64,000 bases of DNA. Source: an uncultured Candidatus Saccharibacteria bacterium. Lineage in GTDB: Bacteria > Patescibacteriota > UBA1384 > JACPKC01. The stretch is taken from positions 160,660 to 224,659 of the forward strand of contig CAYRGD010000001.1 of assembly GCA_964423885.1 (NCBI GenBank), written 5' to 3'. Under the pieces are notes generated by a model. The model did no database searches and was not told where the DNA came from. It worked only from the letters and a program-made list of their open reading frames with translations. How positions within the stretch are numbered: position 1 is the stretch's first letter; each line of letters opens with the position of its first letter. Both the position numbers and the translations under genes were made by a program. Positions 14,160-33,586 of this stretch are shown piece by piece.

Positions 14160-15464
14160 TTAGGCCTCCAGCCGGACGATGGTAGCGCCCAGTGCGCGGA
14201 GATTGCGTTGGAACTGCGCCGCTCCGTACCCTCGGTCGAGGTGTTCGATCCCGGTCAATCGCGATGTGCCTTTGGCCATGAGTGCCGCGACGACGTGGGC
14301 CATACCGGCACGGATATCCGGAATGGAGAGCGTTGTCGGACGCAGGGTCGCTGGTCCGGTAACTGCCGCGCTGTGGCGGCACCCGAGCTTGGCAAATCGG
14401 CACGGCGTTCCGAAACACTCAGTGCTCACCTCGATCCGCCCGCCCATGGCGCGCAGGTCTTCGGTATAGCGGAGCCGATCCTCGTAGACCGTTTCATGGA
14501 CGCGGGATATACCGTTCGCCGCGAGCAGGACAACGACCGACGGCTGCTGCCAGTCGGCCATGAATCCGGGATGGACACCGGTTTCGATATCGGCGGGCGT
14601 AAGGGGGCCACCGCGCTCGAACCTGATGCCGGCCGCATCCTGCGTTACCCTAGCCCCGATCTGTTGTGCGAAGTCGAGGTAGCGGGTGAGATGTTCCGCA
14701 ACGGCGTTTTCAATGAGGATCGACCCATCGGTCGCGAGGGCGAGCGAGGCATAGGACACTGCTTCGAGCCGGTCGGGCAGTACGGTGTGCTCGGCAGGCG
14801 TGAAGCGGTCCACGCCGCGGATCCGTAGCTGCCGTCCGTCCGTGTCGAATGCAATGTCGGCTCCCATGGCGCGCAGGAAATCGGCTAGAGCGACAACTTC
14901 GGGCTCGACCGCGACGCCGGTCGCAACCGTGATCCCCGACGCCCAGCTCGCTGTAAGCAGGATGGTTTCCGTGGCACCGACACTCGGGTACGGCAGGTGG
15001 ATATCGGCACCATGCAGTCCGTCGGTCCGAGCGGCGAAGCCCTGGTCGGTTTGGACGATCGTCGCCCCTAGCGCCTCAAGCGCGTCGATGTGGAAACCCA
15101 CCGGCCGCCGGCCGATTTGGTCGCCGGTGACCGGCGGCACATGGGCAGTACCGAACCGGTAGAGCAGCGGTCCTAATAGTAAAATAGATAGCCGGCTCTT
15201 GGCGGCCTGTCCGGTGAAATCAGGCGCATGGAGCGTCGACGCGTCGATCCGGATACCGTCCGGACGGCGGTCGATCCGGGCACCGGCGGCACCGATGAGA
15301 TCGAGTGCGATATCGGTCTCGCCGATCTCGGGGGCGTTGTGGACCACCGACGTGCCGCTGGGCAGGAGCGAGGCAAGAATCAGCTTGCTCGCCAGGTTTT
15401 TCGCGCCGGACAACCGGACGCTGCCGGCGAGCGCCGTACCGCCGGTGATGTCGTAGACTGCCAT
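14160..15464 (-). CDS. murA: UDP-N-acetylglucosamine 1-carboxyvinyltransferase
   Basis: EPSP-synthase fold, active-site region LSGAKNLASKL, two-domain inverse alpha/beta repeats, 434 aa. Confidence 0.9.
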   Translation of the reverse strand: MAVYDITGGTALAGSVRLSGAKNLASKLILASLLPSGTSVVHNAPEIGETDIALDLIGAAGARIDRRPDGIRIDASTLHAPDFTGQAAKSRLSILLLGPLLYRFGTAHVPPVTGDQIGRRPVGFHIDALEALGATIVQTDQGFAARTDGLHGADIHLPYPSVGATETILLTASWASGITVATGVAVEPEVVALADFLRAMGADIAFDTDGRQLRIRGVDRFTPAEHTVLPDRLEAVSYASLALATDGSILIENAVAEHLTRYLDFAQQIGARVTQDAAGIRFERGGPLTPADIETGVHPGFMADWQQPSVVVLLAANGISRVHETVYEDRLRYTEDLRAMGGRIEVSTECFGTPCRFAKLGCRHSAAVTGPATLRPTTLSIPDIRAGMAHVVAALMAKGTSRLTGIEHLDRGYGAAQFQRNLRALGATIVRLEA

Positions 15465-15561
15465 GCTGGTAGCCTACGGTGGGTCAGGCTCGGATGCAAG
15501 CGAGCTTGAGCCCGGCCGCCGGGTGGGATAGGCTGAATGAAACCAAGCCTGGGAGTATCGG

Positions 15562-16266
15562 ATGGAAGAACGCGACGTAGGATGGGACATTGCCGGCGTA
15601 GCATTGCGGTCGGTGCTGACGCTGCTGGCCGCCGCCATCCTCGTGCTCGAGGCGAACGGCTACCTGATCGATTTCAACCGTCTCCGAGCCGAAAAAGCCG
15701 GCCTGCTCGTACTGGAAACCCGTCCGGCCGATGCGAAGGCAATGCTCGACGGCAACGCGTTGCCACTTCGGCGCGGCCAACTGACAACAGCCTATTTCCC
15801 GGATATGTACCGGCTGGACGTGGTCAAAGACGGCTATCATCCGTGGCATCATACGGTCCGCATCGAGCGTGGCCATGTCGCCGTGTTCGACGGTATCGTG
15901 CTGTTTCCACGTGAACGTCCTGTGACCGGTGCCCGGCCTGCGACGACGGCCGAAGCAGCCGCGCCGCTCGTGGGTTCCCAGTTGCGTGTCACTTCGGGCG
16001 AGGTGTGGTATCAGAGCGCGAGAACCGCTGCGGAACAGCTTGTTACCAGGCTGTCGGTGCCGATCCAGGCCGCGGTCCTGCTCGACAAGGCACACGTGCT
16101 CTATCAGGTACGAAGCGGTGTCCATGTCGTCGATCTCGACGGCACGAACGACGTGCTGCTTATCGATCAGGCGCTGCCGGATCCGGCGCGGATGACCGTT
16201 GCCGACGGCGGACGGACGGTGTTGCTTACGGTTGCAGGGACGACGACGTCGTACCGAGTGCAGTAG
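15562..16266 (+). CDS. Membrane-anchored PEGA-domain-like protein
   Basis: N-terminal TM (VALRSVLTLLAAAILVL) and a PEGA-like beta segment LLVLETRPADAKAMLDGNALP...YRLDVVKDGYHPWHHTVRIERGHVAVF. Confidence 0.45.
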   Translation: MEERDVGWDIAGVALRSVLTLLAAAILVLEANGYLIDFNRLRAEKAGLLVLETRPADAKAMLDGNALPLRRGQLTTAYFPDMYRLDVVKDGYHPWHHTVRIERGHVAVFDGIVLFPRERPVTGARPATTAEAAAPLVGSQLRVTSGEVWYQSARTAAEQLVTRLSVPIQAAVLLDKAHVLYQVRSGVHVVDLDGTNDVLLIDQALPDPARMTVADGGRTVLLTVAGTTTSYRVQ

Positions 16267-16981
16267 GCACCGGCTCGGCGTAGAGTACTAGGCGGTTGAG
16301 CGAGGTGCCGACCGGCGTGCAGGTCATAAGTGCCAGCTGGTTACGGTCGAGCGTTTGGTCGCGGATGACCGATACCTTGTCCGGAGCCACGACTTCGCGG
16401 CCGGTCACGACGTACGCGTACGCCTGGCCGTCCCGTTTCAGGAATACCAGGTCGCCGTCGCGGACTTGGTCGAGCAGCGCGAATACCTTAGTCCACGGGT
16501 TGCGCATCCACCAGTATCCCGACGAGTGGCCGACGATGAAGGTGCGGCCGACCTCGCCCGGGTAGTATGATTCGGCGACCTGGACGACTCCCTGCTGGAG
16601 CCCGTTCAAGGCATCATTGACCGGGATATCCCACAGGATCGGTGCCCGGACGTCGATGCTCGGCAGATAGATCGTGCTGTCATCCATCGTGGGGACCGCG
16701 ACTGCCGGCTGTTCCGGGCCGTAGCCCAGGAATTGCGCAGGCGAAAAATCATCGATATGGCTGTTGGCCGCGGACTCACCGTGCAGGAGCCAACGTTCGA
16801 GCGCGAACGTGAGGCGGTCGTACTGCGCCGGGGCGGATAGCGCTACGAAGACAGCCGCCGCCGCGACTGCCGCCCACACGAACTGGGCGACGCGGTGCGA
16901 CGCCGTGCGGGTATGCCGCCGCCGCGCCAGGCGTGCTACCGCCTGGTCGGCGCTATCGAGGGTAAGGAATGCAGTCGACAT
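16226..16981 (-). CDS. Sortase (class unclear) with N-terminal membrane anchor
   Basis: Conserved His (FIVGHSSGYW), Cys in TLxTC-like motif (LALMTCTP), downstream Arg. ATG at 16981 preferred; GTG at 17065 would leave only 14 bp to the divergent gene. Confidence 0.7.
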   Translation of the reverse strand: MSTAFLTLDSADQAVARLARRRHTRTASHRVAQFVWAAVAAAAVFVALSAPAQYDRLTFALERWLLHGESAANSHIDDFSPAQFLGYGPEQPAVAVPTMDDSTIYLPSIDVRAPILWDIPVNDALNGLQQGVVQVAESYYPGEVGRTFIVGHSSGYWWMRNPWTKVFALLDQVRDGDLVFLKRDGQAYAYVVTGREVVAPDKVSVIRDQTLDRNQLALMTCTPVGTSLNRLVLYAEPVPTALGTTSSSLQP

Positions 16982-17079
16982 AAACCCGATACTATAGGGG
17001 AAAACAGCCGTTTCGTCAAGGTTCACGAACCTGATACTGTGCTTGACAGCCGATAGGGGCCGCACTAAGGTTCGCAGTC

Positions 17080-17511
17080 ATGAACCGCTTATCTGCCGTC
17101 CGGCCGCATATGTTCCGCATCGCGTTCGCGGCGGGTTTGCTTGTTGTCGTCGTGGCCGCCGCCGCTTGGTTGCATCGCCGTACTGCATCCCCCCGCCAGG
17201 CAACCGTGGTACCGCTCGAGGCCCGGGTCGTTTGGACGAGCGACCTGTTCCGGATCGCGAATACGGGTTCCCAGACCTGGCTCAACTGCCAGTTCGTGTT
17301 GAACCGGTCAGATGCGGACGGCAAGCCGGGGTATATCTTGTTCCGGGACCGGGTGCTGCCGCGCGAAGTGCTCCAGGTAGCCCATGCAGTGTTCACCGAT
17401 CCGGCTGGCCAGAAGTACCGCTACGATCAGAACCCGCCGACCAGCTTCTTTATCCGGTGTGAAAACGTCGGTGGCGACGTCGGCGTATTTTCGGGTAAGT
17501 ACGAGCGCTGA
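17080..17511 (+). CDS. Hypothetical protein with N-terminal TM anchor
   Basis: ATG start; hydrophobic segment FRIAFAAGLLVVVVAAAAWL. No recognisable domain. Confidence 0.4.
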   Translation: MNRLSAVRPHMFRIAFAAGLLVVVVAAAAWLHRRTASPRQATVVPLEARVVWTSDLFRIANTGSQTWLNCQFVLNRSDADGKPGYILFRDRVLPREVLQVAHAVFTDPAGQKYRYDQNPPTSFFIRCENVGGDVGVFSGKYER

Positions 17512-17516
17512 GCGCG

Positions 17517-18134
17517 TCAGTTGGCACTAATGCGGACGTCGGCTGCCTGGCCGCGCGCATCGTAGAGTACCCGCAGGGTTAGGCGGTCGGTTGGGATCGC
17601 GGCGGCTTCAGGTCCGAGGCAGTACGACGCCTCGCCGACCTCGTTCTGTCCAAGGAGCGCGGTGATCTGTTGCGGCGTCATGCCGCGGATTTCCTGCACC
17701 AAGGAGGTGACCATCATTTGTCTGGCGCGGCTCGTGCCGCAGCCCGCATCCTGCCATACCTTGGCGTCGAACGGGATCTGTTTGACTGCAAAACCGGGGC
17801 GCAGTACGAGGACTTGCAGCCACAGCGCGACCACTGTCGCGACAATGCCTCCGATGCCGACCATGCTTAGCAGTATTCTGGCCGGACGTTGGGCCGCGAA
17901 GAACGTGCCCGCCAGCATACATGCCACGATCGCGGCAAACAGGCTTGGCAGGAGCGCCAGCAATGGGTGCCCGACGCGTTGGACAAGACTACCGATCTTC
18001 GGTACATGGATAAGCACGCCATAGGTCAGTGTGATCGACAGGGCTGGCAGGCCGAGCCCGACGATACCGCCGACAATCCAGGGAATAATCGGGAGCGTGT
18101 CGGATCCGTGCCGGTCGCTTGCTGGGTGGGCCAT
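17517..18134 (-). CDS. Hypothetical polytopic membrane protein
   Basis: Four to five predicted TM helices followed by a soluble C-terminal ~80-aa domain. No recognisable motifs. Confidence 0.45.
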   Translation of the reverse strand: MAHPASDRHGSDTLPIIPWIVGGIVGLGLPALSITLTYGVLIHVPKIGSLVQRVGHPLLALLPSLFAAIVACMLAGTFFAAQRPARILLSMVGIGGIVATVVALWLQVLVLRPGFAVKQIPFDAKVWQDAGCGTSRARQMMVTSLVQEIRGMTPQQITALLGQNEVGEASYCLGPEAAAIPTDRLTLRVLYDARGQAADVRISAN

Positions 18135-18333
18135 AGCTGCCTTTCATTGCGATTCGTTGGTTGCCTTGGTCACTGTAGTATCGGCATGACGTGGGCGGCG
18201 TCAAGGCCGCGTACCCTATGGCCAGGAGCCGGACAGGGTGACCCTTGACAAGATTTTGCGGCTGTGGCTATCGTCGCAACCAAGGATTCATACCGCGAAC
18301 GTAAAACTAGTATCCGTCCAAGCTGGAGGAGTC

Positions 18334-19254
18334 ATGGTCACTCGTTTTCGAACGGGATTCTCATCCGCCATCGCAGTCCGCCTCGTAGCGGCGTCGCTGC
18401 TCGTGGCAGTGCCATCCTCCGGCTTCGCACTCGACGGTACTCTGTCCAACGAACGGACCGGCGCGGACTCGGCCAACATGAACGACGTCGCGGTGAACCG
18501 TGACCTTGCGGTATCGCTCACGAACACGGCGAACGTGACGAACTCGTTCAACTTCACGGTCAACACCGGCGGCAACACGGTTACTAATAACACGACGGTC
18601 GGCAATGTCACGACCGGAGATGCAACACTTGAACTGAAAGCGGAGACTACTGTAAACGAACTGCCCGACAGCGCGTTGCAGCAGGCACTTGACCAGTTCG
18701 CAGCCGACGGGACGGCGTCCGTGACGTCGTCGAACGCGCAAACCGGTGCCGGTAGCACCAATACCAACACCACGGGTATCACCAAGAGGGTTCGTACGAA
18801 CGTGACGAATACGATGAATGTCACGAACAACGCGGCGCTCGATATCAATACCGGCGGCAACACCGTGAACGACAATACGACCGTCGGCGATATCACGACA
18901 GGAAACATTTCGGTTATCGCGGCGTTCCTGACCCAAGGAGACGGCAAGGGTGCCGGCTTCCCGGGGAACGATACGCCGGGCGATACGGGTACGGGCGGCG
19001 GCACGAACCCCGGAACGGGTCCGGTAACGGTTGCCCAGCTGCCGCCGACTGTCATCAGTCAGGCGCCAGCGACGACCACGCAGGACGTTGGTCGGGGCGG
19101 CGGCCAGTTCTTTCCGGCTGGCACCGACAGCAACCTTGCCCTGGAACTGCTGGTTTTCGTGATCGCCGCTATCCTGCTGGTACGATTCCAGGAACTGCTC
19201 CCGATACTCTTTCCTCGGCTACAGCGCGTACCAGTTATCCGGCCAGCGCGGTAG
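18334..19254 (+). CDS. Secreted Asn/Thr-rich repeat protein 1 (2 repeat units, C-terminal hydrophobic anchor)
   Basis: GGAGGAGTC RBS, signal peptide MVTRFRTGFSSAIAVRLVAASLLVAVPSSGFA. Two copies of the unit TG-x-(D/N)S-x-N-x-N...V-x-N...NTGGNTV-x-(N/D)NTTVG-(N/D)-(V/I)-TTG. C-terminus FPAGTDSN, then hydrophobic stretch, then R/Q-rich tail. Confidence 0.7.
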   Translation: MVTRFRTGFSSAIAVRLVAASLLVAVPSSGFALDGTLSNERTGADSANMNDVAVNRDLAVSLTNTANVTNSFNFTVNTGGNTVTNNTTVGNVTTGDATLELKAETTVNELPDSALQQALDQFAADGTASVTSSNAQTGAGSTNTNTTGITKRVRTNVTNTMNVTNNAALDINTGGNTVNDNTTVGDITTGNISVIAAFLTQGDGKGAGFPGNDTPGDTGTGGGTNPGTGPVTVAQLPPTVISQAPATTTQDVGRGGGQFFPAGTDSNLALELLVFVIAAILLVRFQELLPILFPRLQRVPVIRPAR

Positions 19255-19352
19255 CGGCATAGTTTGGGTCGATGCGTGTCCGTTATCGTATGCGGCGGCC
19301 ACGTACCATCAGCATACGGTGTGTATATACCTACTGAGAAAGGAACGCCCCT

Positions 19353-20222
19353 ATGAAGATCAACTTCATTTCGGCTCGGGATCGCCTGCGGACACTCGCG
19401 GCTGTTTCAGCTGTCGTCCTCATGAGCGGTGCCGGTTCCGCGTGGGCGTCGGTCGATGTCAGCGGTGAAAACGACACCACTGGCTTCAATTCGACGAACC
19501 GCAACAACTATGACATCAGCGACTCGGTTGACCTTGACGTCGATAACAGCGCCACTGTTACCAACACCCCGTCGGTGACGGCGAACAGCGGTGGCAACGA
19601 TGTCAACAACAACACGACCGTTGATGATGTCATGGGCGGCGATATCGATGTCGAAGGCGAGTTCACGAACGAGCTCAACAGCGCCGACATGGATCTCAGC
19701 CTGGACTCGTTCGGCGATGTCTCGGCTGATTTCACCAACGGCACGACCGGCTCGAACTCGGACAACCGCAACGTCCTCGATGTGAACCGCGATATGGACA
19801 TCACTGTCCGTAACTCGGCGACCATCCGGAACGATATCGATGCCGACCTCAACTCTGGCGATAACCGCACGAACAACAACACCACTGTCGGTGACGTTGA
19901 AACCGGCGCTATCGACTTCAGCGTGACGGTCGACAACAAGGCCAATCAGAACGCTGGCAGCATCAAGCTCCCGGATATGGGTTCGATGGACGTCAATGGC
20001 GATTTCGCCAACGACACCACCGGTGCCAATTCGGAGAACCGGAATACTGTCAACGTCAACGATTCGGCTGACATCACCGTTCGGAACAATGCCACGGTCC
20101 GCAACGACCTGGATATCAACGGTGACTCCGGCCACAACGACGTGAACCGCAACACCACTGTGGGCAACGTCAAGACCGGCGATCAGCGGTATAACTTCAC
20201 CTTCACCAACATCCTGAACTAA
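19353..20222 (+). CDS. Secreted Asn/Thr/Asp-rich repeat protein 2 (3 units of ~90 aa, no anchor)
   Basis: AAAGGAA RBS, signal peptide ending AWASVD. Three units beginning TNGTTGSNSDNRN / ANDTTGANSENRN and ending NNTTVGDVETG / NRNTTVGNVKTG. Confidence 0.7.
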   Translation: MKINFISARDRLRTLAAVSAVVLMSGAGSAWASVDVSGENDTTGFNSTNRNNYDISDSVDLDVDNSATVTNTPSVTANSGGNDVNNNTTVDDVMGGDIDVEGEFTNELNSADMDLSLDSFGDVSADFTNGTTGSNSDNRNVLDVNRDMDITVRNSATIRNDIDADLNSGDNRTNNNTTVGDVETGAIDFSVTVDNKANQNAGSIKLPDMGSMDVNGDFANDTTGANSENRNTVNVNDSADITVRNNATVRNDLDINGDSGHNDVNRNTTVGNVKTGDQRYNFTFTNILN

Positions 20223-20314
20223 CGTTCAGACTGTTGGCTGGTGATGTGGGCGGAGGAAGGTAACTTCCTTCTCCCCATCAGCAGCAACATGAGCGGAGGG
20301 AGCGGCAACTATCT

Positions 20315-22231
20315 ATGAAACACATCACGCTCGTACAACGGATCAGCACCCTGGGTCTCGCAGTCGTCTTGGCGTTCGGCCAAGTCGTCCTGCCGGTCGT
20401 TGCCAGGGCAGATGACGCAGTATTGGCGCCTCGAGGCCCTCAAGGCGTTGTCGGCCCGCAGGGTCCTACCGGACCACAAACGCCGACCGGCCCGAAAGGT
20501 CAGACCGGCGTCCAGCCGATTACTCAACCGACGGATCCTGCCCTTGTCCCGTCGTCCGGTACGCAACCGGCCGTAGCGGCCGACACGCTCGCGCCGTCCG
20601 GCGATACCGCCATGTCGAACGAGACGACCGGAAGCAACTCTGCCAACAGCAATGCCCAGCAGACGACGAACACAGCGGATATCACCAATACGAACGATGC
20701 TTCGGTCGGGAACGATATCAACCTCAATGCGACGAGCGGCGCGAACACGATCAGCCAGAACACGCTCGGCGGCAATATCGCCACCGGCGACCTGCAAGGC
20801 TCGATCAACCTGCTCAATGTCACGAACTCGGTCTTCGCCCCTGGTAGCAGTGTGGGTGTCCAGTCACTCGCGGGCGGAGCGAACGACCTGTATCTCTTGG
20901 CGTCGGACGGCCGCACCTTGTTGCCGACCAACGACACCACCGGCGCGAATTCAGCGAACACCAATACTATCGACGGCACGAACGTGGTTCATTTCATTAC
21001 CGCGAACACGTCAGACGTCGACAACGATGTCACGATCGTGGCGGATACGGGAAACAACGTCGTCACGGAAAACTCATCGCTCGGCGATTTCATGACCGGC
21101 AGCATCGATATGGCGCTCAACCTCATCAATCTCATTAACCTGCAGCTGCCCAACTTGCTCGTGAACTTGGATATCTGGTCGATCTTCGGCGACGTGACCG
21201 GCAACCTCATCTTGCCGACGAACAGCACGACCGGATCGAATTCGCTGAACCAAAACGCGGTCAATCAGACCAATACCGCGGCTGTCGACCTGACGCAGAC
21301 TGCTGATGTGGCCAACGGCTTCAACGTCAAGACGAATACCGGCGGCAACACGATCGACCAGAATACGGTGGTCGGCAACGTGACGACCGGCGACGTCGAT
21401 GTGAAAGGCGGTGTCACAACCGTTGCGAATGCCGGCCAGCCAGTGCTGTACCTCATCAATGTGTTGGGAAAGTGGATCGGCCAGGCGTTCCTGCCGGGTG
21501 TCGGCGTGATCGTGAACGAGCTCGGCAACAGCGATACCGGCGCGAACTCCGAAAACACGAATACGGTCGACCAGACCAACGAGCTGACGGCTAGCGTGGA
21601 TCAGACCGCGACAGTCAATAACTCGATCAACCTCGACCTCAATACCGGAAACAATACCGTCGCCCGGAACTCGAAGGTCGGCGACATTTCTACCGGCGCG
21701 ATCAACGTGATGGCGAACGTCGTCAACTTCGTCAATTCTTTCGGCGGCGATCTGTCGCAATTCTCGCTGGGTATCGTGAACGTGTTCGGCAACTGGTTCG
21801 GGAATGCGGCGACTGCCGGATCGACGGCCAGCGCACTCGGGGAAACCGGCGCAGCTGCAACTGCGGATCAGGCACCGGGGCAGACGGCTGCCAGCGCGCA
21901 ATCGGACGCGGGCCAGACCGAAACCCAAGCAGTCGCTGCGTACGCCTCGGACGCGAGTGCGTCAGGCCAGGCTGTTTCGACTACCGTTGCCGCGACAACC
22001 GCTCCTGCAGCGACTACTGCTGCGGTGGATACGCAGCAGATCGCCTCTGCCCAGGTACTTGGCGCATCGAACACGCTTGCCGACGTACTGCCGCAGGTGG
22101 CGGGTTCGTCCGACCGCAAGGCAAGCGGCAGCGCGTTACCGTGGCTGGTTGCAGGCGCGGTGCTGCTCGCTGGCTGGGTCTTCGTCGAAGTCATGGCCGC
22201 CCGAACCTTGAAGCGCCAAGCAGGACGATAG
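20315..22231 (+). CDS. Secreted Asn/Thr-rich repeat protein 3 (short collagen-like GXY stretch, 4 units of ~100 aa, Ala/Thr linker, C-terminal TM anchor)
   Basis: Signal peptide; GPQGVVGPQGPTGPQTPTGPKGQTG; units start NETTGSNSANSN / NDTTGANSANTN / NSTTGSNSLNQN / NSDTGANSENTN. C-terminus LPQVAGSSDRKASGSALPWLVAGAVLLAGWVFVEVMAARTLKRQAGR. Confidence 0.75.
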   Translation: MKHITLVQRISTLGLAVVLAFGQVVLPVVARADDAVLAPRGPQGVVGPQGPTGPQTPTGPKGQTGVQPITQPTDPALVPSSGTQPAVAADTLAPSGDTAMSNETTGSNSANSNAQQTTNTADITNTNDASVGNDINLNATSGANTISQNTLGGNIATGDLQGSINLLNVTNSVFAPGSSVGVQSLAGGANDLYLLASDGRTLLPTNDTTGANSANTNTIDGTNVVHFITANTSDVDNDVTIVADTGNNVVTENSSLGDFMTGSIDMALNLINLINLQLPNLLVNLDIWSIFGDVTGNLILPTNSTTGSNSLNQNAVNQTNTAAVDLTQTADVANGFNVKTNTGGNTIDQNTVVGNVTTGDVDVKGGVTTVANAGQPVLYLINVLGKWIGQAFLPGVGVIVNELGNSDTGANSENTNTVDQTNELTASVDQTATVNNSINLDLNTGNNTVARNSKVGDISTGAINVMANVVNFVNSFGGDLSQFSLGIVNVFGNWFGNAATAGSTASALGETGAAATADQAPGQTAASAQSDAGQTETQAVAAYASDASASGQAVSTTVAATTAPAATTAAVDTQQIASAQVLGASNTLADVLPQVAGSSDRKASGSALPWLVAGAVLLAGWVFVEVMAARTLKRQAGR

Positions 22232-22237
22232 CGATTG

Positions 22238-22816
22238 ATGCTCAAACGGTTGCTGCTTGGTTCACTCATTACGCTCGGCTTGATACTTGCATGGCACGGC
22301 CCGCTTCTGGCGGGCCTCCTGCGTCCTCGCCTGTACGACGCCGGACTTGTCCGCTCGACTGATGCCGAGATCGGACCCGACGAACTGCGGTACGACCGGC
22401 TTGGGATCCGTGCCCCCGTTTCGGTCGACGCGGATACGAGTCCGCTGGTCGAATCCGATTGGTCGAAGATCACGCAATCGCTCATGGAAGGTGTAAGCCT
22501 GTCGTACGAGGGCGACACGTTCACCGATGCCCGGCTCGCGTTCGTGACGGGACATTCGAGCGACGCGACGCGACATGCGTTCGACAGCGTCTTTGCCGGC
22601 CTCGGCCAAGCGGCGCCAGGCGACACGTTCACGCTTGCGGTCGACGGCGAGCGGTTCGACTACCGGGTCGTGGATCGCCGGACCATTGCGCCAGCCGATG
22701 CCGACGCGTTCCGGCTCCTTGCCCCGAGCGACGATTCGGACCGTGTCGCCCTGGTAACCTGTTGGCCTCCGCTTACCACGAAGACCCGTATGGTTGTCAT
22801 CGGCGTACGGCTCTGA
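22238..22816 (+). CDS. Sortase with N-terminal membrane anchor
   Basis: Starts 7 nt after repeat protein 3. His in FVTGHSSDAT, Cys in ALVTCWPP, Arg in RMVVIGVRL. Confidence 0.75.
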   Translation: MLKRLLLGSLITLGLILAWHGPLLAGLLRPRLYDAGLVRSTDAEIGPDELRYDRLGIRAPVSVDADTSPLVESDWSKITQSLMEGVSLSYEGDTFTDARLAFVTGHSSDATRHAFDSVFAGLGQAAPGDTFTLAVDGERFDYRVVDRRTIAPADADAFRLLAPSDDSDRVALVTCWPPLTTKTRMVVIGVRL

Positions 22817-22851
22817 TAGAGATACGGTATCCGAACCAAGGAGGTCTGTGC

Positions 22852-24009
22852 ATGAACCTGCCCGTCCGCCTGCTCATAGTGGCAGTACTCTTCTCGGCCG
22901 TTGTATCCCCTGCTTCGACCAGCGCCCGCGACACGTCCACCCGGCGTTCGATCGTCGTACTCAAATCGAAGGCAGCCCACGACCGCGTGAAGAAGGCGGT
23001 GGCCTTGTCATCCGAGATCGAGGAGATCGCCGACCTGTCGGGCCAGCAGGCACTGGTCACCGAACTCTCCGACGCATCGAAACGGGATCTTGCTCGCAAC
23101 CCCGATGTGCTACGGATCGACGAGGATATCGAACTGTCGGCGGACAGCATCCGGACCGCACCGCAGACGGTGCCGTGGGGCATCGACCGGATCCATGCGC
23201 CGGCCGCGTGGAGTGCCGACACGGGAACGGGTATCGACGTGGCGGTGATCGACACCGGTGTCGACCTCGACCATCCCGACCTGCTGCCGAACATCGGCTC
23301 GGGTATCAATATCGTGAAGCCGAAACGCGCTCCCGACGACGACAACGGCCATGGTACGCATGTGGCCGGGATTATCGGTGCTGCCAGTAATGCGGTCGGG
23401 GTGGTCGGCGTCGCGCCGACTGTCCGGATCCACCCGGTCAAGGTGCTCAAGAGCAACGGAACAGGCTATCTGTCGGATATCATCGCGGGCATTGATTGGG
23501 CGATTGCCAACGGTATGGATGTGATCAATCTGAGTCTTGGTGCCGCGCAGGATATCCCGTCGCTCCATGACGCCGTGCAGCGCGCCGACCGTGCCGGTAT
23601 CGTCGTCGTGGCTGCGGCCGGTAATTCCGGCGGCCCAGTGATGTATCCGGCAGCGTATCCCGAGGTGATCGCGGTCGGTATGATCGGCCAGGACGGCAGT
23701 GTTGACCGGATGTCCTCGCGCGGACCCCAGCTCGACCTGGTTGCTCCCGGGGCAGCGGTCTACTCCACCTATCGTGGCAAGACCTACCGCACCATGACCG
23801 GCACCTCGATGGCCTCGCCTCATGTGGTAGGCGTGGCCGCCCTCCTATTGGCTCGACCGGCTGCCTGCGATACCGACGGCGACGGGCGCTGCTCACGCGA
23901 CGAAGTGGCCCGCCGCCTGGAACGGACCGCGACCGATCTCGGTTCCGCAGGCCGGGATGATGCGTCGGGCTTCGGCCTGGTGAACGCGCAGGCCGCCCTC
24001 GGCTTCTAG
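22852..24009 (+). CDS. Secreted subtilisin-like serine protease (peptidase S8)
   Basis: AGGAGG RBS, signal peptide, catalytic triad motifs VAVIDTGVD, HGTHVAGII, GTSMASPHVVG. Confidence 0.85.
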   Translation: MNLPVRLLIVAVLFSAVVSPASTSARDTSTRRSIVVLKSKAAHDRVKKAVALSSEIEEIADLSGQQALVTELSDASKRDLARNPDVLRIDEDIELSADSIRTAPQTVPWGIDRIHAPAAWSADTGTGIDVAVIDTGVDLDHPDLLPNIGSGINIVKPKRAPDDDNGHGTHVAGIIGAASNAVGVVGVAPTVRIHPVKVLKSNGTGYLSDIIAGIDWAIANGMDVINLSLGAAQDIPSLHDAVQRADRAGIVVVAAAGNSGGPVMYPAAYPEVIAVGMIGQDGSVDRMSSRGPQLDLVAPGAAVYSTYRGKTYRTMTGTSMASPHVVGVAALLLARPAACDTDGDGRCSRDEVARRLERTATDLGSAGRDDASGFGLVNAQAALGF

Positions 24010-24082
24010 TGATAGCCCGCCGGACCGGCGCCACGCCTCTCCCTTGTGGCGCACCGCTGTAAGCGGCTACACTATACCCGAT

Positions 24083-24169
24083 GCCGCGGTGGCGGAACTG
24101 GCAGACGCAACGGACTCAAAATCCGTCGACCGCAAGGTCATGTGGGTTCGACTCCCACCCGCGGCACCA
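24083..24169 (+). tRNA. tRNA-Leu (anticodon CAA), class II with long variable arm
   Basis: Acceptor stem GCCGCGG/CCGCGGC, anticodon stem ACGGA/UCCGU with loop CUCAAAA, 15-nt variable arm, T-arm GUGGG-UUCGACU-CCCAC, encoded CCA. 87 nt. Confidence 0.85.
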
Positions 24170-24172
24170 CTA

Positions 24173-24541
24173 CTACTGGCGCAGGATCTTCTCCATGGGC
24201 CTGCCCTTCGCCAGTTCGTCGATCAACTTATCCATATAGCGTACCTCACGCATCAGATCGTCCGTGATCTCTTCGAGCCGGACGCCGCAGATCACCCCGG
24301 TGATCTGCGTTCGTGCAGGGTTCATCGTGGGCGCTTCGGCAAAGAATGTCTCCAAATCAACCTCTCGCGCAATCTGCTTGTCGAGTCCTGCCTTTGTGTA
24401 GCCGGTCAGCCAGGCAATAACCTCGTCGACTTCTGCTTTTGTCCGCCCCTTCCGTTCGGCTTTGGTGATATAGAGCGGATAGACGCTTGAAAAACGTATC
24501 GCATAGACCCGCCGGTTTTTCGCATCGTCGCCTTGTTTCAT
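24173..24541 (-). CDS. Conserved hypothetical protein (DUF2200-like)
   Basis: 122 aa; [38 protein letters not shown] resembles DUF2200 as I recall it. Confidence 0.45.
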
Positions 24542-25149
24542 GGGAATGGTGCCGCTCCTTGGCGGATGATCACGGGCGGTGTACAGGTAAGGTCGACTAT
24601 GGTCGAAGGCGGTATGTCCGGCAAGGTGCCGGCGTCAAGGACAAGGTCGGGCAGATTGCTAGACTCCTGTACTCCAAGGAATTCTTCTCGGATCGCTTCG
24701 TATGAATAGAGCGCCGGTTCGCCAGTCAGATTGGCGCTGGTGCTGATGAACGGGGCGCCGAACGCCACCGCCAACTGCCGGGTCACCTCGTGGTCGGGAA
24801 CACGGATCCCGACAGTGTTCGAACCGAGCAACTGCAGATCGGCGGCCAGGAGCACGAACGTGAACGGCCCTGGAAGAGAGCGCTCCAGCGCTGCGCGTTG
24901 GCTGTCGGTCAGGATCGCGACCCGCTCGATGCCCGCTATACCATTCACGATCACGGAATATTTTTTGCGTTCGTCACGGCGCTTCATTGCAGCGATACGC
25001 GCGACCGCCCGCGTGTTGTGCGGATCCGCGCCGATGCCGTAGCAGGTGTCCGTTGGGTAGACGATCACCCCGCCCTTACGAAGAACGTCGGATGCCGCCG
25101 CAATGGCTGCCGGGTCAGGATGCGCGGGATTGATCGGCACTACAGTCAT
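24538..25149 (-). CDS. tsaC: L-threonylcarbamoyladenylate synthase (YrdC/TsaC family)
   Basis: YrdC fold motifs [17 protein letters not shown] and [10 protein letters not shown]. 203 aa. Confidence 0.8.
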
Positions 25150-25193
25150 TTACTGGTAGCGTACCAAGGAGTCTGGTACCATACCAGCCACAC

Positions 25194-25269
25194 GGGCCCA
25201 TAGCTCAGTTGGTAGAGCGCGGCATTCGCATTGCCGAGGTCAGGAGTTCGAATCTCCTTGGGTCCACCA
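25194..25269 (+). tRNA. tRNA-Ala (anticodon CGC)
   Basis: Acceptor GGGCCCA with G3:U70 Ala identity pair, D-arm GCUC-AGUUGGUA-GAGC, anticodon loop UUCGCAU, T-arm AGGAG-UUCGAAU-CUCCU, encoded CCA. Confidence 0.85.
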
Positions 25270-25286
25270 AACACCACCAAACCCCC

Positions 25287-25667
25287 ATGGCAACGAACAA
25301 TCCAGATTTTCATACGGCCCTACAATCGCTGCTCGATGCAATATCGAACCGTGATTTTGAACGGTACAAGGCGCACATTACGAAAAACCACACGCTGTAT
25401 ACGATTGTCCAAAACGGACAGGCGTTTACGACGTCGCAGGAATTACTTGCTATGCACGAGGCATGGTTCAAGGATCCGCACTGGATATGGGAGGGCTCTG
25501 TTATTCGCACCGATGTGGGTCAGGATATGGCAATGGCCATCATCAAGTACGAGTACCGAGCGAAAAAGGAAGACGCACCGTCGAGCACGTGGCTGACCTA
25601 TGTGTTCCGGCTCGAAGATGGGGAGTGGCGTCTCATACATGACCACAATACCGCGCTGAATGCGTAG
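25287..25667 (+). CDS. NTF2-like / SnoaL-like small protein (DUF4440-like)
   Basis: Start trimmed to the ATG after the tRNA. Motifs FERYKAHITKNHTLYTI and WLTYVFRLEDGEWRLIHDH. Visibly lower GC than its flanks. Confidence 0.5.
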   Translation: MATNNPDFHTALQSLLDAISNRDFERYKAHITKNHTLYTIVQNGQAFTTSQELLAMHEAWFKDPHWIWEGSVIRTDVGQDMAMAIIKYEYRAKKEDAPSSTWLTYVFRLEDGEWRLIHDHNTALNA

Positions 25668-32487: not shown

Positions 32488-33492
32488 ATGACTACGCATC
32501 GCATGAAACGTCTTGCTTTCGCCGCTGGCGTCGCGGCACTCGCGGGAATGGTAGGAGCGCCGCTCATCGCGGCTGCGCAAGCCGCCGCGACTACGACTAG
32601 CGCCAACGCGGTCGACGTATCGATCACGCCGCTCATCCGCGACGTGACAGCCAAACCCGGCGATACCTTCACGGGTTCGATCGAGGTGAAGAACGAATCG
32701 GATGCCAAGCAGACCTTTTTCCCGGCTGCCCGCGACTTCACGGCGTCGGACGACTCCACGAGCGGCGCACCCAAGTTCCTTGAGACAGCCGGTGTTCCCG
32801 AACAAAGCCTGTCGTCATGGGTCAAGTTCAAGCAGACTTCGGTGCCGATCGACGCGAAAAAGTCCGCGATGATCGACTACACGGTCGTCGTCCCCGCGAA
32901 CGCGGAACCGGGCGGCCACTATGCCGGCATCTTCGCTTCCACTCAGGCGCCTGATGTCACTGGCGGCTCGGGTGTCGCGATCGCCGCGCGGGTCGGCTCC
33001 CTGCTCCTGCTGACGGTGTCCGGCGATATCCGGACCTCGGCCGAGATCTCATCGTTCAAGACTGACAAGTCTGTCTACCAGTCCGGCCCGATCAGCTTTA
33101 TTGCCGACCTCAAGAACGACGGCAATATCCACTTCAAGCCGAAAGGTACGATCGATGTGAAGAACGGCACCATGGTCAAATCGGTGGCGTTCAACGAGAA
33201 TGGCGGCAACGTCTTGCCGTCGAGCGTCCGCGAGTTCACCAGTAACCTGGACGGCAACTTCGGATTCGGGCGGTACACGGCGACGCTGACGCTCACTGCG
33301 CAGGCATCGAACGGAGACACGATTCCCCTCACCTCGGTGGTCAGTTTCTGGGTGATCCCGATGAGCACCGTCCTCATCGCGCTCCTTATTCTCATCGTGC
33401 TCTACATGCTGCTCAAGAACGGCATGAAGGAAAGCAGCGCGAAGGGTGGCAGTAACATGGCGGCTCCGGCAACCAAGAAGGCGTCGAAGTAA
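32488..33492 (+). CDS. DUF916/DUF3324-like cell-surface protein with C-terminal TM anchor and Lys-rich tail (CscA-like)
   Basis: Signal peptide; VDVSITPLIRDVTAKPGDTFTGSIEVKNESDAKQTFF resembles the DUF916 N-terminal consensus as I recall it; second half YAGIFAS...IAARVGSLLLL is DUF3324-like. C-terminal TM VIPMSTVLIALLILIVLYMLL followed by KNGMKESSAKGG. Confidence 0.55.
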   Translation: MTTHRMKRLAFAAGVAALAGMVGAPLIAAAQAAATTTSANAVDVSITPLIRDVTAKPGDTFTGSIEVKNESDAKQTFFPAARDFTASDDSTSGAPKFLETAGVPEQSLSSWVKFKQTSVPIDAKKSAMIDYTVVVPANAEPGGHYAGIFASTQAPDVTGGSGVAIAARVGSLLLLTVSGDIRTSAEISSFKTDKSVYQSGPISFIADLKNDGNIHFKPKGTIDVKNGTMVKSVAFNENGGNVLPSSVREFTSNLDGNFGFGRYTATLTLTAQASNGDTIPLTSVVSFWVIPMSTVLIALLILIVLYMLLKNGMKESSAKGGSNMAAPATKKASK

Positions 33493-33513
33493 CACGCGGC
33501 GCAGATCGGAACA

Positions 33514-33547
33514 ACGACGGATCCCACAGGGTCCGTCGTTTTGTTTG
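33514..33547 (+). terminator. Intrinsic terminator after the first WxL-like/DUF916 pair
   Basis: ACGACGGATCC-cacag-GGTCCGTCGT (10-bp stem, one mismatch) followed by TTTTGTTTGGG. A TATACT -10-like hexamer lies downstream at 33562-33567, before the next gene. Confidence 0.55.
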
Positions 33548-33586
33548 GGCTAGTGCATTGCTATACTGGATCCGACATCGGAGGGA

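What the first reader, a model, noticed from the sequence alone, without database searches (positions are those of the whole stretch)
16226..24169. tRNA-Leu-bounded surface-protein island: two sortases, three secreted repeat proteins and a subtilisin
The ~8 kb between murA/PEGA and tRNA-Leu(CAA) encodes only envelope-facing functions. These are a sortase (16226-16981), two small membrane-anchored unknowns, three consecutive secreted proteins built from one repeat family, a second sortase starting 7 nt after the third repeat protein, and a secreted S8 protease with its own AGGAGG RBS. The repeat genes look lower in GC than the flanking housekeeping genes, partly because of AAC/ACN codon bias, and the block ends at a tRNA gene, the classical insertion landmark. 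No integrase or transposase is present, so mobility is not supported. The content and position look like a lineage-specific accessory cell-surface module (adhesin, S-layer-like or host attachment), possibly processed by the co-located subtilisin and anchored by the sortases.
Basis: partly seen in the sequence, partly recalled or inferred. Interest (0 to 1): 0.85.

Follow-up and report, generated by a model that had tools for sequence, protein, structure and literature searches.

The report
Conserved sortase-linked surface repeat-protein cassette
This stretch is not a mobile island but a conserved gene set of ultra-small Patescibacteria (CPR bacteria): three secreted proteins built from an undescribed ~90-residue repeat, a dedicated sortase that probably recognises an unusual FFPAG signal, and a previously unlisted structured RNA ahead of the middle gene.

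Summary
In detail: two sortases, three secreted paralogous repeat proteins (2, 3 and 4 units of ~90 aa), an S8 protease and tRNA-Leu(CAA) lie at the stated coordinates.

The "tRNA-bounded accessory island" reading fails.
- The order from murA through rep1-rep2-rep3-srt2-S8 to tRNA-Leu recurs in at least 9 distinct relatives. One further contig is cut within rep3.
- GC3 and synonymous codon use match the flanking genes.

The conserved core is rep1-rep2-rep3-srt2.
- It recurs in other genomic contexts in distant relatives whose contigs carry no closer name.
- Andersenbacteria, Woesebacteria and Saccharimonadales carry looser versions with canonical-type sortases.
- The repeat matches no Pfam, NCBIfam or PDB entry, yet 2,338 clusters carry it. 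Every member a source names is Patescibacteria.

Every two-unit member ends in FFPAG, a hydrophobic helix and a basic tail. It co-occurs with a sortase bearing VTCWPxxTT (13 loci both, 7 neither, 0 discordant).

rep2 has no anchor. It is among the best conserved proteins of the block. It is flanked by a covarying pseudoknot leader (no Rfam match) and a strong 3' hairpin.

Best model, inferred: rep1 and rep3 are anchored and abundant free rep2 assembles on them. The fold is unresolved. This is a new variant of a known kind.

The parts
15562..16266 (+). PEGA-like membrane protein. It is a conserved neighbour and its 3' end overlaps the srt1 3' end by 41 nt.
   Evidence: Pfam PEGA E=5e-4, just under the cut-off. 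Orthologues sit at the same place in L001, L002, L007, L009, L010 and L012.
16226..16981 (-). srt1: a membrane-anchored sortase with a canonical-type LMTC active-site motif. It is found only in the murA-syntenic lineage.
   Evidence: Pfam Sortase 4.2e-23. Best solved relative is class C sortase 8t28, E=9.5e-9, with His, Cys and Arg aligned. Below every class cut-off in NCBIfam.
17080..17511 (+). p143: a small N-terminally anchored protein of unknown function. It is not part of the widely conserved core.
   Evidence: No Pfam or NCBIfam hit. Orthologues in L007, L009 and L010. L029 has a 137-aa ORF called at the same position. Absent at this spot in L001, L002, L012 and L030.
17517..18134 (-). 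p205: a polytopic membrane protein of unknown function. It is not part of the widely conserved core.
   Evidence: Three to four hydrophobic segments. No family hit. Orthologues in L007 and L009. L029 has a 200-aa ORF called at the same position. A homologue lies elsewhere in L001, at 834-1364.
18245..18274 (+). Promoter-like site upstream of rep1 (TTGACA-18-TATCGT).
   Evidence: 10 of 12 consensus matches. This is a consensus match only, and the number of such sites in the region is not above the shuffle expectation.
18334..19254 (+). rep1, 306 aa. Layout: signal-peptide-like N-terminus, 2 repeat units (18427-18693 and 18712-18963), a Gly/Thr/Pro-rich linker, FFPAG (19108-19122), a hydrophobic helix and a basic tail. 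It is the proposed srt2 substrate and wall anchor.
   Evidence: GGAGG RBS and ATG. Units scored against the unit profile. FF[PAR][AS]G plus TM plus basic tail in every two-unit member and rep1 orthologue examined.
19263..19327 (+). Structured RNA leader of rep2. It has an invariant GGUCGA box, hairpin P1, and a loop (CGUAUGC) that pairs with downstream GCAUACG to form an H-type pseudoknot.
   Evidence: In 17 sequences P1 is 86% paired and the pseudoknot helix 89% paired. 14 of 16 pairs change on both sides. Covariation is 0.518 against 0.247 in shuffles (0/500). The covariance model finds one copy in 19 of the searched sequences, always in this spacer, and nothing else in 428 kb. No Rfam match.
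19353..20222 (+). rep2, 289 aa. Layout: signal-peptide-like N-terminus (the sequence reads ...AGSAWA then SVDV) and 3 repeat units (19449-19715, 19716-19985, 19989-20219). It has no anchor and an excess of 28 acidic residues. It is the proposed abundant free subunit.
   Evidence: 64 homologues, many of 285-293 aa. No conserved Lys and no C-terminal hydrophobic segment. Identity to relatives of 52-85%, at or above most housekeeping neighbours.
20223..20297 (+). Strong hairpin immediately after the rep2 stop codon. It is proposed to be an attenuator or an mRNA 3' stabiliser.
   Evidence: dG -46.5 kcal/mol, z -5.45, 0 of 200 shuffles fold as well. A hairpin with a different sequence sits at the same place in 10 other loci. 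Nine have z -2.9 to -6.2. L012 has z -0.9 because the folded stretch ran into coding sequence.
20315..22231 (+). rep3, 638 aa. Layout: signal-peptide-like N-terminus, a Gly/Pro-rich collagen-like stretch (about 20435-20510), 4 repeat units (20597-20866, 20915-21169, 21209-21463, 21512-21769) with hydrophobic inserts, an Ala/Thr/Ser linker, LPQVAG (22088-22105), a spacer, a hydrophobic helix (about 22136-22201) and a basic tail.
   Evidence: Units. C-terminal architecture is conserved in orthologues. 17 of 46 large anchored family members carry [LF][PA]x[TSVA][GA] within 30 aa of the helix, against 3% expected. A weak collagen match is the only PDB sequence hit.
22238..22816 (+). srt2: the cassette-specific sortase, with the active-site signature VTCWPPLTT. 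Its ATG is the seventh base after the rep3 stop.
   Evidence: Pfam Sortase 6e-12. Best solved relatives are class C sortases (8t28, E=3e-5), with the His and Cys regions aligned. Co-occurs with FFPAG proteins in 13 loci, with none discordant.
22852..24009 (+). Secreted subtilisin-like S8 protease with the Asp/His/Ser motifs present. It is lineage-restricted company of the cassette.
   Evidence: Peptidase_S8 1.7e-60. GGAGG RBS. Directly after srt2 in L001, L002, L007, L008, L009, L012 and L030, and upstream of the cassette in L004. Absent from L003, L006 and L013 and not called in L031-L033.
24083..24169 (+). tRNA-Leu(CAA): a conserved syntenic neighbour, not an insertion boundary.
   Evidence: ARAGORN. 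The same tRNA follows S8 in L001, L002, L007, L008, L009 and L012.

Best explanation
This is a vertically inherited cell-surface assembly cassette of Patescibacteria (CPR bacteria).

**Components**
- Three paralogous proteins are exported. This is inferred from their signal-peptide-like N-termini.
- Each is built from a ~90-residue, all-beta, Asn/Asp/Thr/Gly-rich unit whose strands alternate hydrophobic and acidic or polar residues.
- rep1 (2 units) and rep3 (4 units) end in a low-complexity wall-spanning linker, a short motif, a hydrophobic helix and a basic tail. That is the layout of a sortase sorting signal.

**Proposed mechanism**
- srt2 is encoded immediately after rep3 and has an unusual VTCWPxxTT active-site segment. 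It most likely cleaves rep1 at its non-canonical FFPAG motif and links it to the cell wall (inferred).
- rep3 either stays membrane-anchored or is processed at its weaker LPQVAG motif, possibly by srt1 (inferred).
- rep2 (3 units, no anchor) is the main building block. It is made in excess from an mRNA bracketed by a pseudoknotted 5' leader and a strong 3' hairpin. It assembles non-covalently onto the homologous units of anchored rep1 and rep3 to form a fibre or coat on the cell surface (inferred).
- The S8 protease is a lineage-specific addition that may trim or release these proteins (speculative).

**What is shown and what is inferred**
- Shown: gene content, repeat homology, conserved synteny, motif-sortase co-occurrence, RNA covariation and the lack of foreign composition.
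- Inferred: enzyme-substrate pairing, differential expression and co-assembly.
For: **Gene content and repeats**
- Sortase and S8 domains.
- Unit counts and E-values.

**Breadth of the family**
- 2,338 clusters at 50% identity carry the unit (E<=1e-3 in 1.84 billion proteins).
- No Pfam, NCBIfam or PDB sequence match.
- Every member that a source names is Patescibacteria: Berkelbacteria, Andersenbacteria, Woesebacteria, Parcubacteria, Saccharibacteria.

**Inheritance**
- Synteny with murA/mreB and the tRNAs.
- The core rep1-rep2-rep3-srt2 appears in other contexts.
- A sortase is adjacent in 18 of the 20 distinct loci with enough flank.
- Native GC3 and codon use.

**Sorting signals**
- FF[PAR][AS]G plus helix plus basic tail in every two-unit member and rep1 orthologue examined.
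- Co-occurrence with VTCWP-type sortases: 13 loci have both, 7 have neither, none is discordant. The two loci that lack rep1 also lack the sortase.
- LPXTG-like motifs are enriched before the helix in large members, 17 of 46 against 3% expected. These include canonical LPVTG and LPETG, and LPLTG in one member from a later search.

**rep2 as the main subunit**
- No anchor, fixed length, no conserved Lys.
- Among the best conserved proteins of the block.
- Covarying pseudoknot leader.
- Positionally conserved 3' hairpin.

**Fold**
- Unit covariation gives two strand-turn-strand elements.
Against: - No experiment or expression data exist, and the protein fold is unresolved. AF2 gave pLDDT 58.9 for rep2 and 42.7 for a single unit. 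Structural matches are insignificant.
- FFPAG is not a known sortase motif. Cleavage by srt2 rests only on co-occurrence among related genomes, which are not independent samples.
- rep3's LPQVAG is poorly conserved in orthologues.
- rep2's strong net negative charge (28 excess acidic residues) argues against simple amyloid-like stacking unless cations are bound.
- Two loci have rep2 and rep3 with neither rep1 nor a sortase. Sortase action is therefore not required for rep2 and rep3 to exist.
- The hairpins could be ordinary terminators. The leader could be a processing site or a regulator-binding site, with no bearing on abundance.
Confidence: 0.5

Rival explanations
1. One reading: a lineage-specific accessory surface island inserted next to tRNA-Leu and variable between relatives.
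For: - The block ends at a tRNA gene.
- Overall GC of the repeat genes is slightly lower.
- p143 and p205 are present in only some relatives.
- 0.5-0.9 kb of extra DNA lies between S8 and tRNA-Leu in L007, L008 and L009.
Against: - The whole order, including both tRNAs, is conserved in 9 or more distinct relatives at 41-87% protein identity.
- GC3 and synonymous codon use equal those of the flanks.
- No integrase or transposase family matched any of the nine ORFs tested.
- rep2 is as conserved as housekeeping enzymes.
Confidence: 0.03
2. A Gram-positive-type covalent pilus. srt2 would act as a class C pilin polymerase, joining rep proteins head to tail through sorting-signal and lysine isopeptide bonds. 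rep1 and rep3 would serve as base and tip pilins.
For: - Three paralogous secreted proteins followed by a sortase is the classic pilus-operon layout.
- The best solved and best NCBIfam relatives of both sortases are class C.
Against: - rep2, the best conserved member and the likely major one, has no sorting signal.
- No Lys is conserved in 37 aligned rep2 homologues.
- No Cna/Ig-type pilin domain is detected.
- The sortases score 50-57 bits against a class C cut-off of 160.
- No DP[FWY] lid motif is evident in the srt2 clade.
Confidence: 0.08
3. The three proteins act independently rather than co-assembling. They could be an S-layer-like or cation-binding acidic coat, separate adhesins, or a wall-modifying scaffold. 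rep2 would be a soluble or loosely bound secreted factor.
For: - Very acidic, Asp/Asn-rich composition.
- Two loci carry rep2 and rep3 without rep1 or a sortase.
- In this lineage the cassette lies beside the wall and shape genes murA, mreB and the PEGA gene.
Against: - An anchored paralogue plus an unanchored one recurs across distant classes.
- The units are homologous between anchored and free members.
- rep2 keeps a fixed three-unit length and evolves slowly, which suggests tight packing constraints.
- None of this is decisive.
Confidence: 0.22
4. A curli- or Fap-like functional amyloid. Each half-unit would form one rung of a parallel beta-solenoid. Free rep2 would polymerise on anchored nucleators rep1 and rep3, as CsgA does on CsgB or short chaplins do on sortase-anchored long chaplins. 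This is a more specific version of the best explanation.
For: - Asn/Gly/Thr/Ser-rich imperfect repeats with two similar TGxN turn motifs per unit.
- Covariation shows strand-turn-strand contacts plus weak constant-separation contacts at 33-38 residues.
- The top Foldseek hit is FapC.
Against: - The two strand-turn-strand elements differ greatly in length (7 against ~20 residues per arm), which is unlike equal solenoid rungs.
- The constant-separation signal can arise from an internal duplication.
- High negative charge.
- No Pfam Curlin or Chaplin hit.
Confidence: 0.15

Closest known systems
Sortase-dependent pilus gene clusters of Gram-positive bacteria (SpaA type: two or three pilin genes plus a class C sortase)
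   Same: - Several paralogous secreted proteins are followed directly by a dedicated sortase.
- The sortases' nearest solved relatives are class C enzymes.
- Sorting-signal-like tails are present on two of the three proteins.
   Different: - The middle, best conserved protein has no sorting signal and no conserved lysine.
- The building block is an undescribed beta repeat, not Cna/Ig pilin domains.
- The motif is FFPAG rather than LPXTG.
- The sortases fall far below the class C cut-off.
Streptomyces chaplins (from my own knowledge): long chaplins anchored by sortase through LAXTG, and short secreted chaplins that assemble on them
   Same: - Anchored multi-domain paralogues and an unanchored paralogue share one domain.
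- A sortase provides the wall anchor.
- The strands are amphipathic.
   Different: - No sequence relation: no Chaplin domain was detected.
- The unit is ~90 aa and very acidic rather than a ~40-aa hydrophobic domain.
- The genes here form one operon-like cassette with the sortase.
Dedicated sortase and cognate-substrate pairs with non-LPXTG motifs (from my own knowledge, e.g. SrtB with NPQTN; class D with LPNTA; the class GN 'marine' sortase system, which appears in NCBIfam)
   Same: One sortase subtype is encoded next to a single substrate type carrying its own variant motif. The variant motif and the variant active-site segment co-occur.
   Different: - Neither FFPAG nor the VTCWPxxTT segment matches any curated sortase class.
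- The pairing is untested biochemically.
Curli (CsgA/CsgB) and Fap (FapC) functional amyloids
   Same: - Asn/Gly/Ser/Thr-rich imperfect repeats.
- The possibility of an anchored nucleator plus a free subunit.
- The weak best structural hits are to these proteins.
   Different: - No significant sequence or fold match.
- Curli and Fap are systems of diderm bacteria that use outer-membrane secretion channels, which are not seen here.
- Much higher acidic content here.
Pam pili of CPR bacteria (bioRxiv 10.64898/2026.03.03.709456)
   Same: A CPR-restricted surface filament system built from previously unannotated secreted proteins.
   Different: - Pam pilins are two-domain Ig-like proteins joined by donor-strand exchange, with chaperone-like partners.
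- That paper mentions sortase only as background and mentions no repeat.
- The cassettes are unrelated.
pap fimbrial operon mRNA processing (from my own knowledge): a stable major-pilin transcript that ends in a stem-loop
   Same: The gene proposed to be the major subunit is bracketed by RNA structures, a 5' leader and a 3' hairpin, within a multi-gene cassette.
   Different: - No evidence here of processing or differential stability.
- The leader is a pseudoknot with an invariant GGUCGA box and has no Rfam counterpart.

Membership tests
Sortase (Pfam PF04203, peptidase C60) | Domain match above the curated cut-off | tested here: met
   srt1 81.9 bits and srt2 45.8 bits against a cut-off of 26.6.
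Sortase (Pfam PF04203, peptidase C60) | Catalytic His, Cys and Arg | tested here: met
   - The HMMER alignment of srt1 to 8t28 covers the GH, TC and R positions.
- The srt2 alignment to 8t28 covers the GH and TC positions.
- His, Cys and the following Arg are conserved in 13 cassette sortases from other loci. The window's srt2 row in that alignment was translated out of frame, so its TGHSSD, VTCWPPLTT and R are read from the ORF translation.
Class C (pilus-assembly) sortase | NCBIfam class_C_sortase score at or above the cut-off (160 bits) | tested here: not met
   57.2 bits (srt1) and 49.8 bits (srt2). Class C is the best-scoring class for both, but far below the cut-off.
Class C (pilus-assembly) sortase | N-terminal lid with a DP[FWY] motif | tested here: inconclusive
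   The srt2 clade has a conserved TSPLxxxDW segment but no DP[FWY]. Without a structure the segment's role cannot be judged.
LPXTG-type cell-wall sorting signal | Tripartite C-terminus: motif, ~20 hydrophobic residues, basic tail | tested here: met
   rep1 and rep3 and their orthologues show it. rep2 lacks it.
LPXTG-type cell-wall sorting signal | LPXTG pentapeptide | tested here: not met
   - rep1 has FFPAG, found in every two-unit member examined.
- rep3 has LPQVAG 16 residues before the helix, and this is poorly conserved.
- Some distant family members do carry LPVTG, LPETG, LPLTG or LAATG.
Sortase-assembled pilus | Every pilin carries a sorting signal, and the major pilin has a conserved pilin-motif lysine | tested here: not met
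   rep2 has no sorting signal. No Lys is among the invariant or nearly invariant columns in 37 homologues.
Sortase-assembled pilus | CnaA/CnaB or Ig-like pilin domains | tested here: not met
   No Pfam or NCBIfam domain is found in rep1-3 or in 10 diverse family members. The fold itself is unresolved.
Peptidase S8 (subtilase) | Domain match above the cut-off, and an Asp/His/Ser triad | tested here: met
   205.2 bits against a cut-off of 21.8. The DTG, HGTH and GTSMASP motifs are read directly in the ORF translation.
Genomic island | Variable presence between relatives at a conserved junction | tested here: not met
   Block and junctions are conserved in L001, L002, L007, L008, L009, L012 and L030, and in the partial loci L010 and L029.
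Genomic island | Deviant composition or codon use | tested here: not met
   GC3 is 0.73-0.77 in the repeat genes against 0.63-0.83 in the other genes scored. Synonymous codon fractions are similar.
Genomic island | Integrase, transposase or flanking direct repeats | tested here: not met
   No such domain was found in any of the nine ORFs from 15562 to 24009. Flanking repeats were not searched for.
Curli or Fap functional amyloid | Curlin or Fap repeat signature, or a matching solenoid fold | tested here: inconclusive
   - No Pfam hit.
- FapC is the top Foldseek hit, but with probability 0.06.
Any Rfam family (for the rep2 leader RNA) | Covariance-model match | tested here: not met
   Only the two tRNAs and one sub-threshold chance hit appear in 15400-25400 at E<=1.

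The most novel reading that the evidence does not exclude
The cassette encodes a so far unrecognised, CPR-wide class of surface appendage or coat.

- The structure would be built non-covalently from an abundant beta-repeat subunit (rep2).
- It would sit on wall-anchored paralogues.
- Anchoring would be done by a new sortase subclass (VTCWPxxTT) that recognises a new sorting motif (FFPAG).
- Subunit output would be set by a new pseudoknotted cis-regulatory RNA.

If so, it could account for some of the unexplained pili-like or surface-layer structures seen on ultra-small bacteria.
Probability: 0.3. Interest if true: 0.8.

Novelty: new variant of a known kind. Interest (0 to 1): 0.6.

Why it matters
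Patescibacteria are thought to live attached to other microbes, yet few of their surface structures are known at the molecular level beyond type IV pili and the recently described Pam pili.

This cassette gives four concrete, testable handles:
- a large unannotated repeat family (2,338 clusters at 50% identity) whose named members are all from this radiation;
- a candidate new sortase-motif pair (FFPAG with VTCWPxxTT) that would extend the known range of sortase specificity;
- an anchored-plus-free paralogue layout that predicts a fibre or coat;
- a covarying pseudoknot RNA that is absent from Rfam.

The result also shows that "ends at a tRNA and has lower GC" was a false island signal. The GC dip came from amino-acid composition.

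Tried and rejected
**Structure**
- AF2 on rep2 with 37 homologues gave pLDDT 58.9. AF2 on a single unit with 83 units gave pLDDT 42.7 and no secondary structure. Neither model is usable.

**Sequence searches that found nothing or little**
- Searching the PDB with rep3 and with the unit profile returned nothing relevant.
- Searching the word-indexed protein database with the unit profile returned only 3 hits, a wasted search.
- The search for related loci with the 37-sequence alignment failed for lack of conserved stretches. The 12-sequence alignment worked but returned only 11 loci per collection.

**Covariation**
- Two-unit covariation to find inter-unit contacts was dominated by same-position couplings between neighbouring units. 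These are expected from repeat homogenisation and were discarded.
- I first read the unit covariation as proof of antiparallel hairpins and against a solenoid. I withdrew that reading, because the beta-arches of a solenoid give the same i+j-constant pattern.

**Other checks**
- The promoter and terminator consensus scan was no better than shuffles.
- Three literature searches found sortase enrichment in CPR (PMC6744442) but no description of this cassette.
- The long antisense ORFs inside the repeat genes (for example 18288-19055 and 21074-21928 on the minus strand) were dismissed. Homologues, signal-peptide-like N-termini and unit profiles all support the plus-strand frames.

Full report
**1. 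What is there**

| Feature | Coordinates | Strand | Evidence |
|---|---|---|---|
| srt1 | 16226-16981 | - | Sortase, 4e-23 |
| p143 | 17080-17511 | + | N-terminal hydrophobic segment |
| p205 | 17517-18134 | - | 3-4 hydrophobic segments |
| rep1 | 18334-19254 | + | start fixed by a GGAGG RBS |
| rep2 | 19353-20222 | + | repeat protein |
| rep3 | 20315-22231 | + | repeat protein |
| srt2 | 22238-22816 | + | Sortase, 6e-12; ATG is the seventh base after the rep3 stop |
| S8 protease | 22852-24009 | + | Peptidase_S8, 2e-60; own GGAGG |
| tRNA-Leu(CAA) | 24083-24169 | + | ARAGORN |

- A profile built from 83 aligned units finds 2, 3 and 4 units in rep1, rep2 and rep3. Per-unit E-values are 1e-16 to 1e-30.
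- The modal period across 207 family proteins is 90 residues.
- Upstream lie a PEGA-like gene, murA, mreB and a GT4 glycosyltransferase.

**2. Not an island**

- Looking up rep2 homologues on their contigs and scanning species genomes gave 34 loci.
- The order xseA-GT4-mreB-murA-PEGA-srt1-rep1-rep2-rep3-srt2-S8-tRNA-Leu(CAA)-sua5-tRNA-Ala(CGC)-pgi-eno recurs in L001, L002 (the same contig as L011), L007, L008, L009, L012 and L030. It is partly visible in L010 and L029.
- Protein identities to the window are 77-87% for MreB, 49-70% for MurA and 52-85% for rep2.
- rep2 is the best conserved protein of the block in L007 (85% against 64-76% for its neighbours). It ranks with housekeeping enzymes elsewhere.
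- The overall GC dip (0.56-0.61) sits in codon positions 1 and 2. GC3 is 0.73-0.77 against 0.63-0.83 in the other genes scored, and synonymous codon fractions match.
- p143 and p205 occur between srt1 and rep1 only in a sub-lineage: the window, L007, L009, L029, and p143 alone in L010.

**3. The unit that travels**

*Full cassette in other contexts*
- In more distant genomes the murA context is lost, but rep1-rep2-rep3-srt2 stays together. These are L006, L013, L031, L032 and L033, next to a NUDIX gene, a purine-DNA glycosylase gene (Pur_DNA_glyco) and RmuC.

*Looser versions*
- Andersenbacteria (L003), Woesebacteria (L004) and Saccharimonadales (L014-L016, L025, L026) keep a looser version. 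It has one or more unanchored and one or more anchored repeat proteins plus a sortase of the ordinary TC[ST]G type.

*Sortase and S8 adjacency*
- A sortase lies next to the repeat genes in 18 of 20 distinct loci with enough flank.
- The two exceptions are L034 and the P0040 contig. They have rep2 and rep3 but neither rep1 nor a sortase.
- S8 follows srt2 only in the murA-syntenic lineage. It lies two genes upstream of the cassette in L004.

**4. The repeat family**

- The unit profile matches 2,338 representatives of 50%-identity clusters (E<=1e-3; 328 at E<=1e-30) among 1.84 billion proteins.
- Architectures are mostly of 3, 4 or 6 units, with a few of up to 10.
- rep1, rep2 and rep3 and ten diverse members hit nothing in Pfam or NCBIfam. 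Nothing in the PDB matches by sequence.
- All members that carry a source name are Patescibacteria.
- Every strand of the unit alternates a hydrophobic residue with Asp, Asn, Thr or Ser. Two near-invariant turns (N-x-TTG-x-NS-x-N-x-N and NTG-x-N-xxxx-NTTVG-D-V-x-TGD) suggest an internal duplication.
- Mean-field covariation on 800 units gives two strand-turn-strand elements. One is short (positions 4-10 with 15-21). One is long (31-52 with 58-79, with twelve or more contacts on one anti-diagonal). There are also weaker contacts at a constant separation of 33-38.
- This fits either long beta-hairpins or the arches of a solenoid.
- I treat the fold as unresolved.

**5. Sorting signals and the sortase pairing**

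*Layout of rep1 and rep3*
- Both have the layout of wall-anchored proteins: repeat domain, low-complexity linker, motif, hydrophobic helix, basic tail.

*FFPAG in two-unit members*
- Every two-unit member examined carries FF[PAR][AS]G directly before the helix. The set comprises 10 from the representative search, 8 more from the rep1 search, and the locus orthologues.

*Co-occurrence with the sortase variant*
- Cassettes with such a protein always have a downstream sortase whose catalytic cysteine sits in VTCWP[PVL][LF]TT.
- Cassettes without one have TC[ST]G sortases or none.
- The tally is 13 loci with both, 7 with neither and none discordant.
- This is the main argument that srt2 processes rep1 at FFPAG. 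It is an inference, and the loci are phylogenetically related.

*Large anchored members*
- 17 of 46 have [LF][PA]x[TSVA][GA] within 30 residues of the helix, against 3% expected from the rest of the sequences. These include LPVTG and LPETG. LPLTG was seen in one member from a later search.
- The window's rep3 has LPQVAG 16 residues upstream of the helix. It aligns in position with LADTGA and LAATGA of the Andersenbacteria-type proteins, but it decays in closer orthologues.

*Sortase class*
- Both sortases retain His, Cys and Arg. Their nearest solved relatives are class C enzymes.
- They miss every NCBIfam class cut-off.

**6. rep2 and its RNA context**

*The protein*
- rep2 has a signal-peptide-like N-terminus, three units and nothing else. 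It has no helix, no motif and no conserved lysine.

*3' hairpin*
- Directly after its stop codon lies a hairpin of -46.5 kcal/mol (z -5.45).
- A hairpin of unrelated sequence occupies the same spot in ten other loci, including Andersenbacteria and Woesebacteria.

*5' leader*
- In the rep1-rep2 spacer there is an invariant GGUCGA box, then a hairpin whose loop is complementary to a stretch 10-20 nt downstream.
- On 17 sequences the outer hairpin is 86% paired and the pseudoknot helix 89% paired. 14 of 16 pairs change on both sides.
- Covariation is 0.518 against 0.247 in shuffles (0/500) and 0.09-0.18 when partners are slid.
- A covariance model finds one copy in 19 of the searched sequences. 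It is always in this spacer and on this strand, with nothing else in 428 kb. It finds none in the loci that lack an FFPAG protein.
- Rfam has no match.

*Reading*
- A gene bracketed by a structured leader and a strong 3' hairpin inside a cassette is what one sees for abundant major subunits. This reading is an inference.

**7. Model and rivals**

*Best model*
- rep1, and perhaps rep3, is fixed to the envelope by sortase.
- rep2 is made in excess and assembles on the homologous units to form a fibre or coat.
- The closest analogies are sortase-anchored long chaplins with free short chaplins, and the nucleator-subunit logic of curli.

*Covalent pilus*
- This is unlikely, because rep2 has neither a sorting signal nor a conserved lysine.

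*Independent action*
- An acidic coat or separate adhesins cannot be excluded.

*Amyloid-like solenoid*
- This remains possible but unsupported by any significant match.

*S8 protease*
- Its role is open.

**8. Literature**

- Sortases are known to be enriched in CPR genomes (PMC6744442).
- The Pam pili recently solved in a Saccharimonadia species are Ig-like donor-strand-exchange filaments and unrelated to this cassette.
- None of three full-text searches found a description of this repeat family, the FFPAG signal or the leader RNA.

**9. Verdict**

- What remains is a conserved, uncharacterised, sortase-linked surface cassette. It brings a new repeat family, a candidate new sorting motif with a matching sortase variant, and a new structured RNA.
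- It is a new variant of a known kind of system.
- It is of moderate to good interest because it is testable and widespread in a poorly understood radiation.

Noticed in passing
window 19263-19327 (+): A pseudoknotted RNA element lies in the rep1-rep2 spacer. It has a GGUCGA box, a hairpin, and loop-to-downstream pairing, with strong covariation in 17 loci. One copy sits at the same position in 19 of the searched sequences, and there is no Rfam match. Its function is unknown: leader, processing site or riboswitch-like.
   Followed up: yes
window 20223-20297 (+): A very stable hairpin follows the rep2 stop directly (dG -46.5, z -5.45). A hairpin of different sequence sits at the same position in 10 other loci across CPR classes. 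Most have no U-tract, so it may not be a classical terminator.
   Followed up: partly
window 32488-37249: A second cluster of ORFs with signal-peptide-like N-termini; the only one tested (34609-35235) has no Pfam hit. The ORFs are 32488-33492 (C-terminal helix and basic tail), 33587-34612, 34609-35235 (which ends ...HPFTGQP, then a helix, then RKAR, a possible sortase-type signal and perhaps a srt1 substrate) and 36569-37249 (-).
   Followed up: no
window 20435-20510 (rep3 residues ~41-65); also L003, L006, L002: The rep3 N-terminus has a Gly/Pro-rich, collagen-like G-X-Y stretch (GPQGVVGPQGPTGPQTPTGPKGQTG). Similar stretches start the large anchored protein in Andersenbacteria and other distant loci. 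It could be a stalk or a trimerisation segment.
   Followed up: partly
window 16226-16266: The PEGA-like gene (+) and srt1 (-) overlap tail to tail by 41 nt. The adjacency is conserved in all syntenic relatives.
   Followed up: no
L007 9277-9952, L008 5109-5639, L009 14843-15734: Between S8 and tRNA-Leu these relatives carry 0.5-0.9 kb that the window lacks (73 nt there). L009 also has extra DNA between tRNA-Leu and sua5. Some variability therefore does occur next to the tRNA, just not the cassette itself.
   Followed up: no
P0059-P0064 (Woesebacteria-type members); L004 10001-11287: The unanchored members of this branch end in an aromatic-rich tail (for example FDFDFSSLWIWFTHNQSN and FDFGFNWTFFWAWLHWTG) instead of stopping at the last unit, and they contain Cys pairs. 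This may be a different attachment mode.
   Followed up: no
window 24173-24541 (-) and 25209-25667 (+): A DUF2200 protein (2e-51) and a SnoaL-like protein (1e-9) sit between the two tRNAs and after tRNA-Ala. The mechanical ORF at 25209 starts inside tRNA-Ala, so its real start must be later.
   Followed up: no
rep3 inter-unit segments, e.g. window ~21100-21210, 21400-21510, 21720-21800: rep3 units are separated by hydrophobic inserts (for example LINLINLQLPNLLVNLDIWSIFG and PVLYLINVLGKWIGQAFLPG) that rep1 and rep2 lack. This stretches the period to ~100 aa.
   Followed up: no
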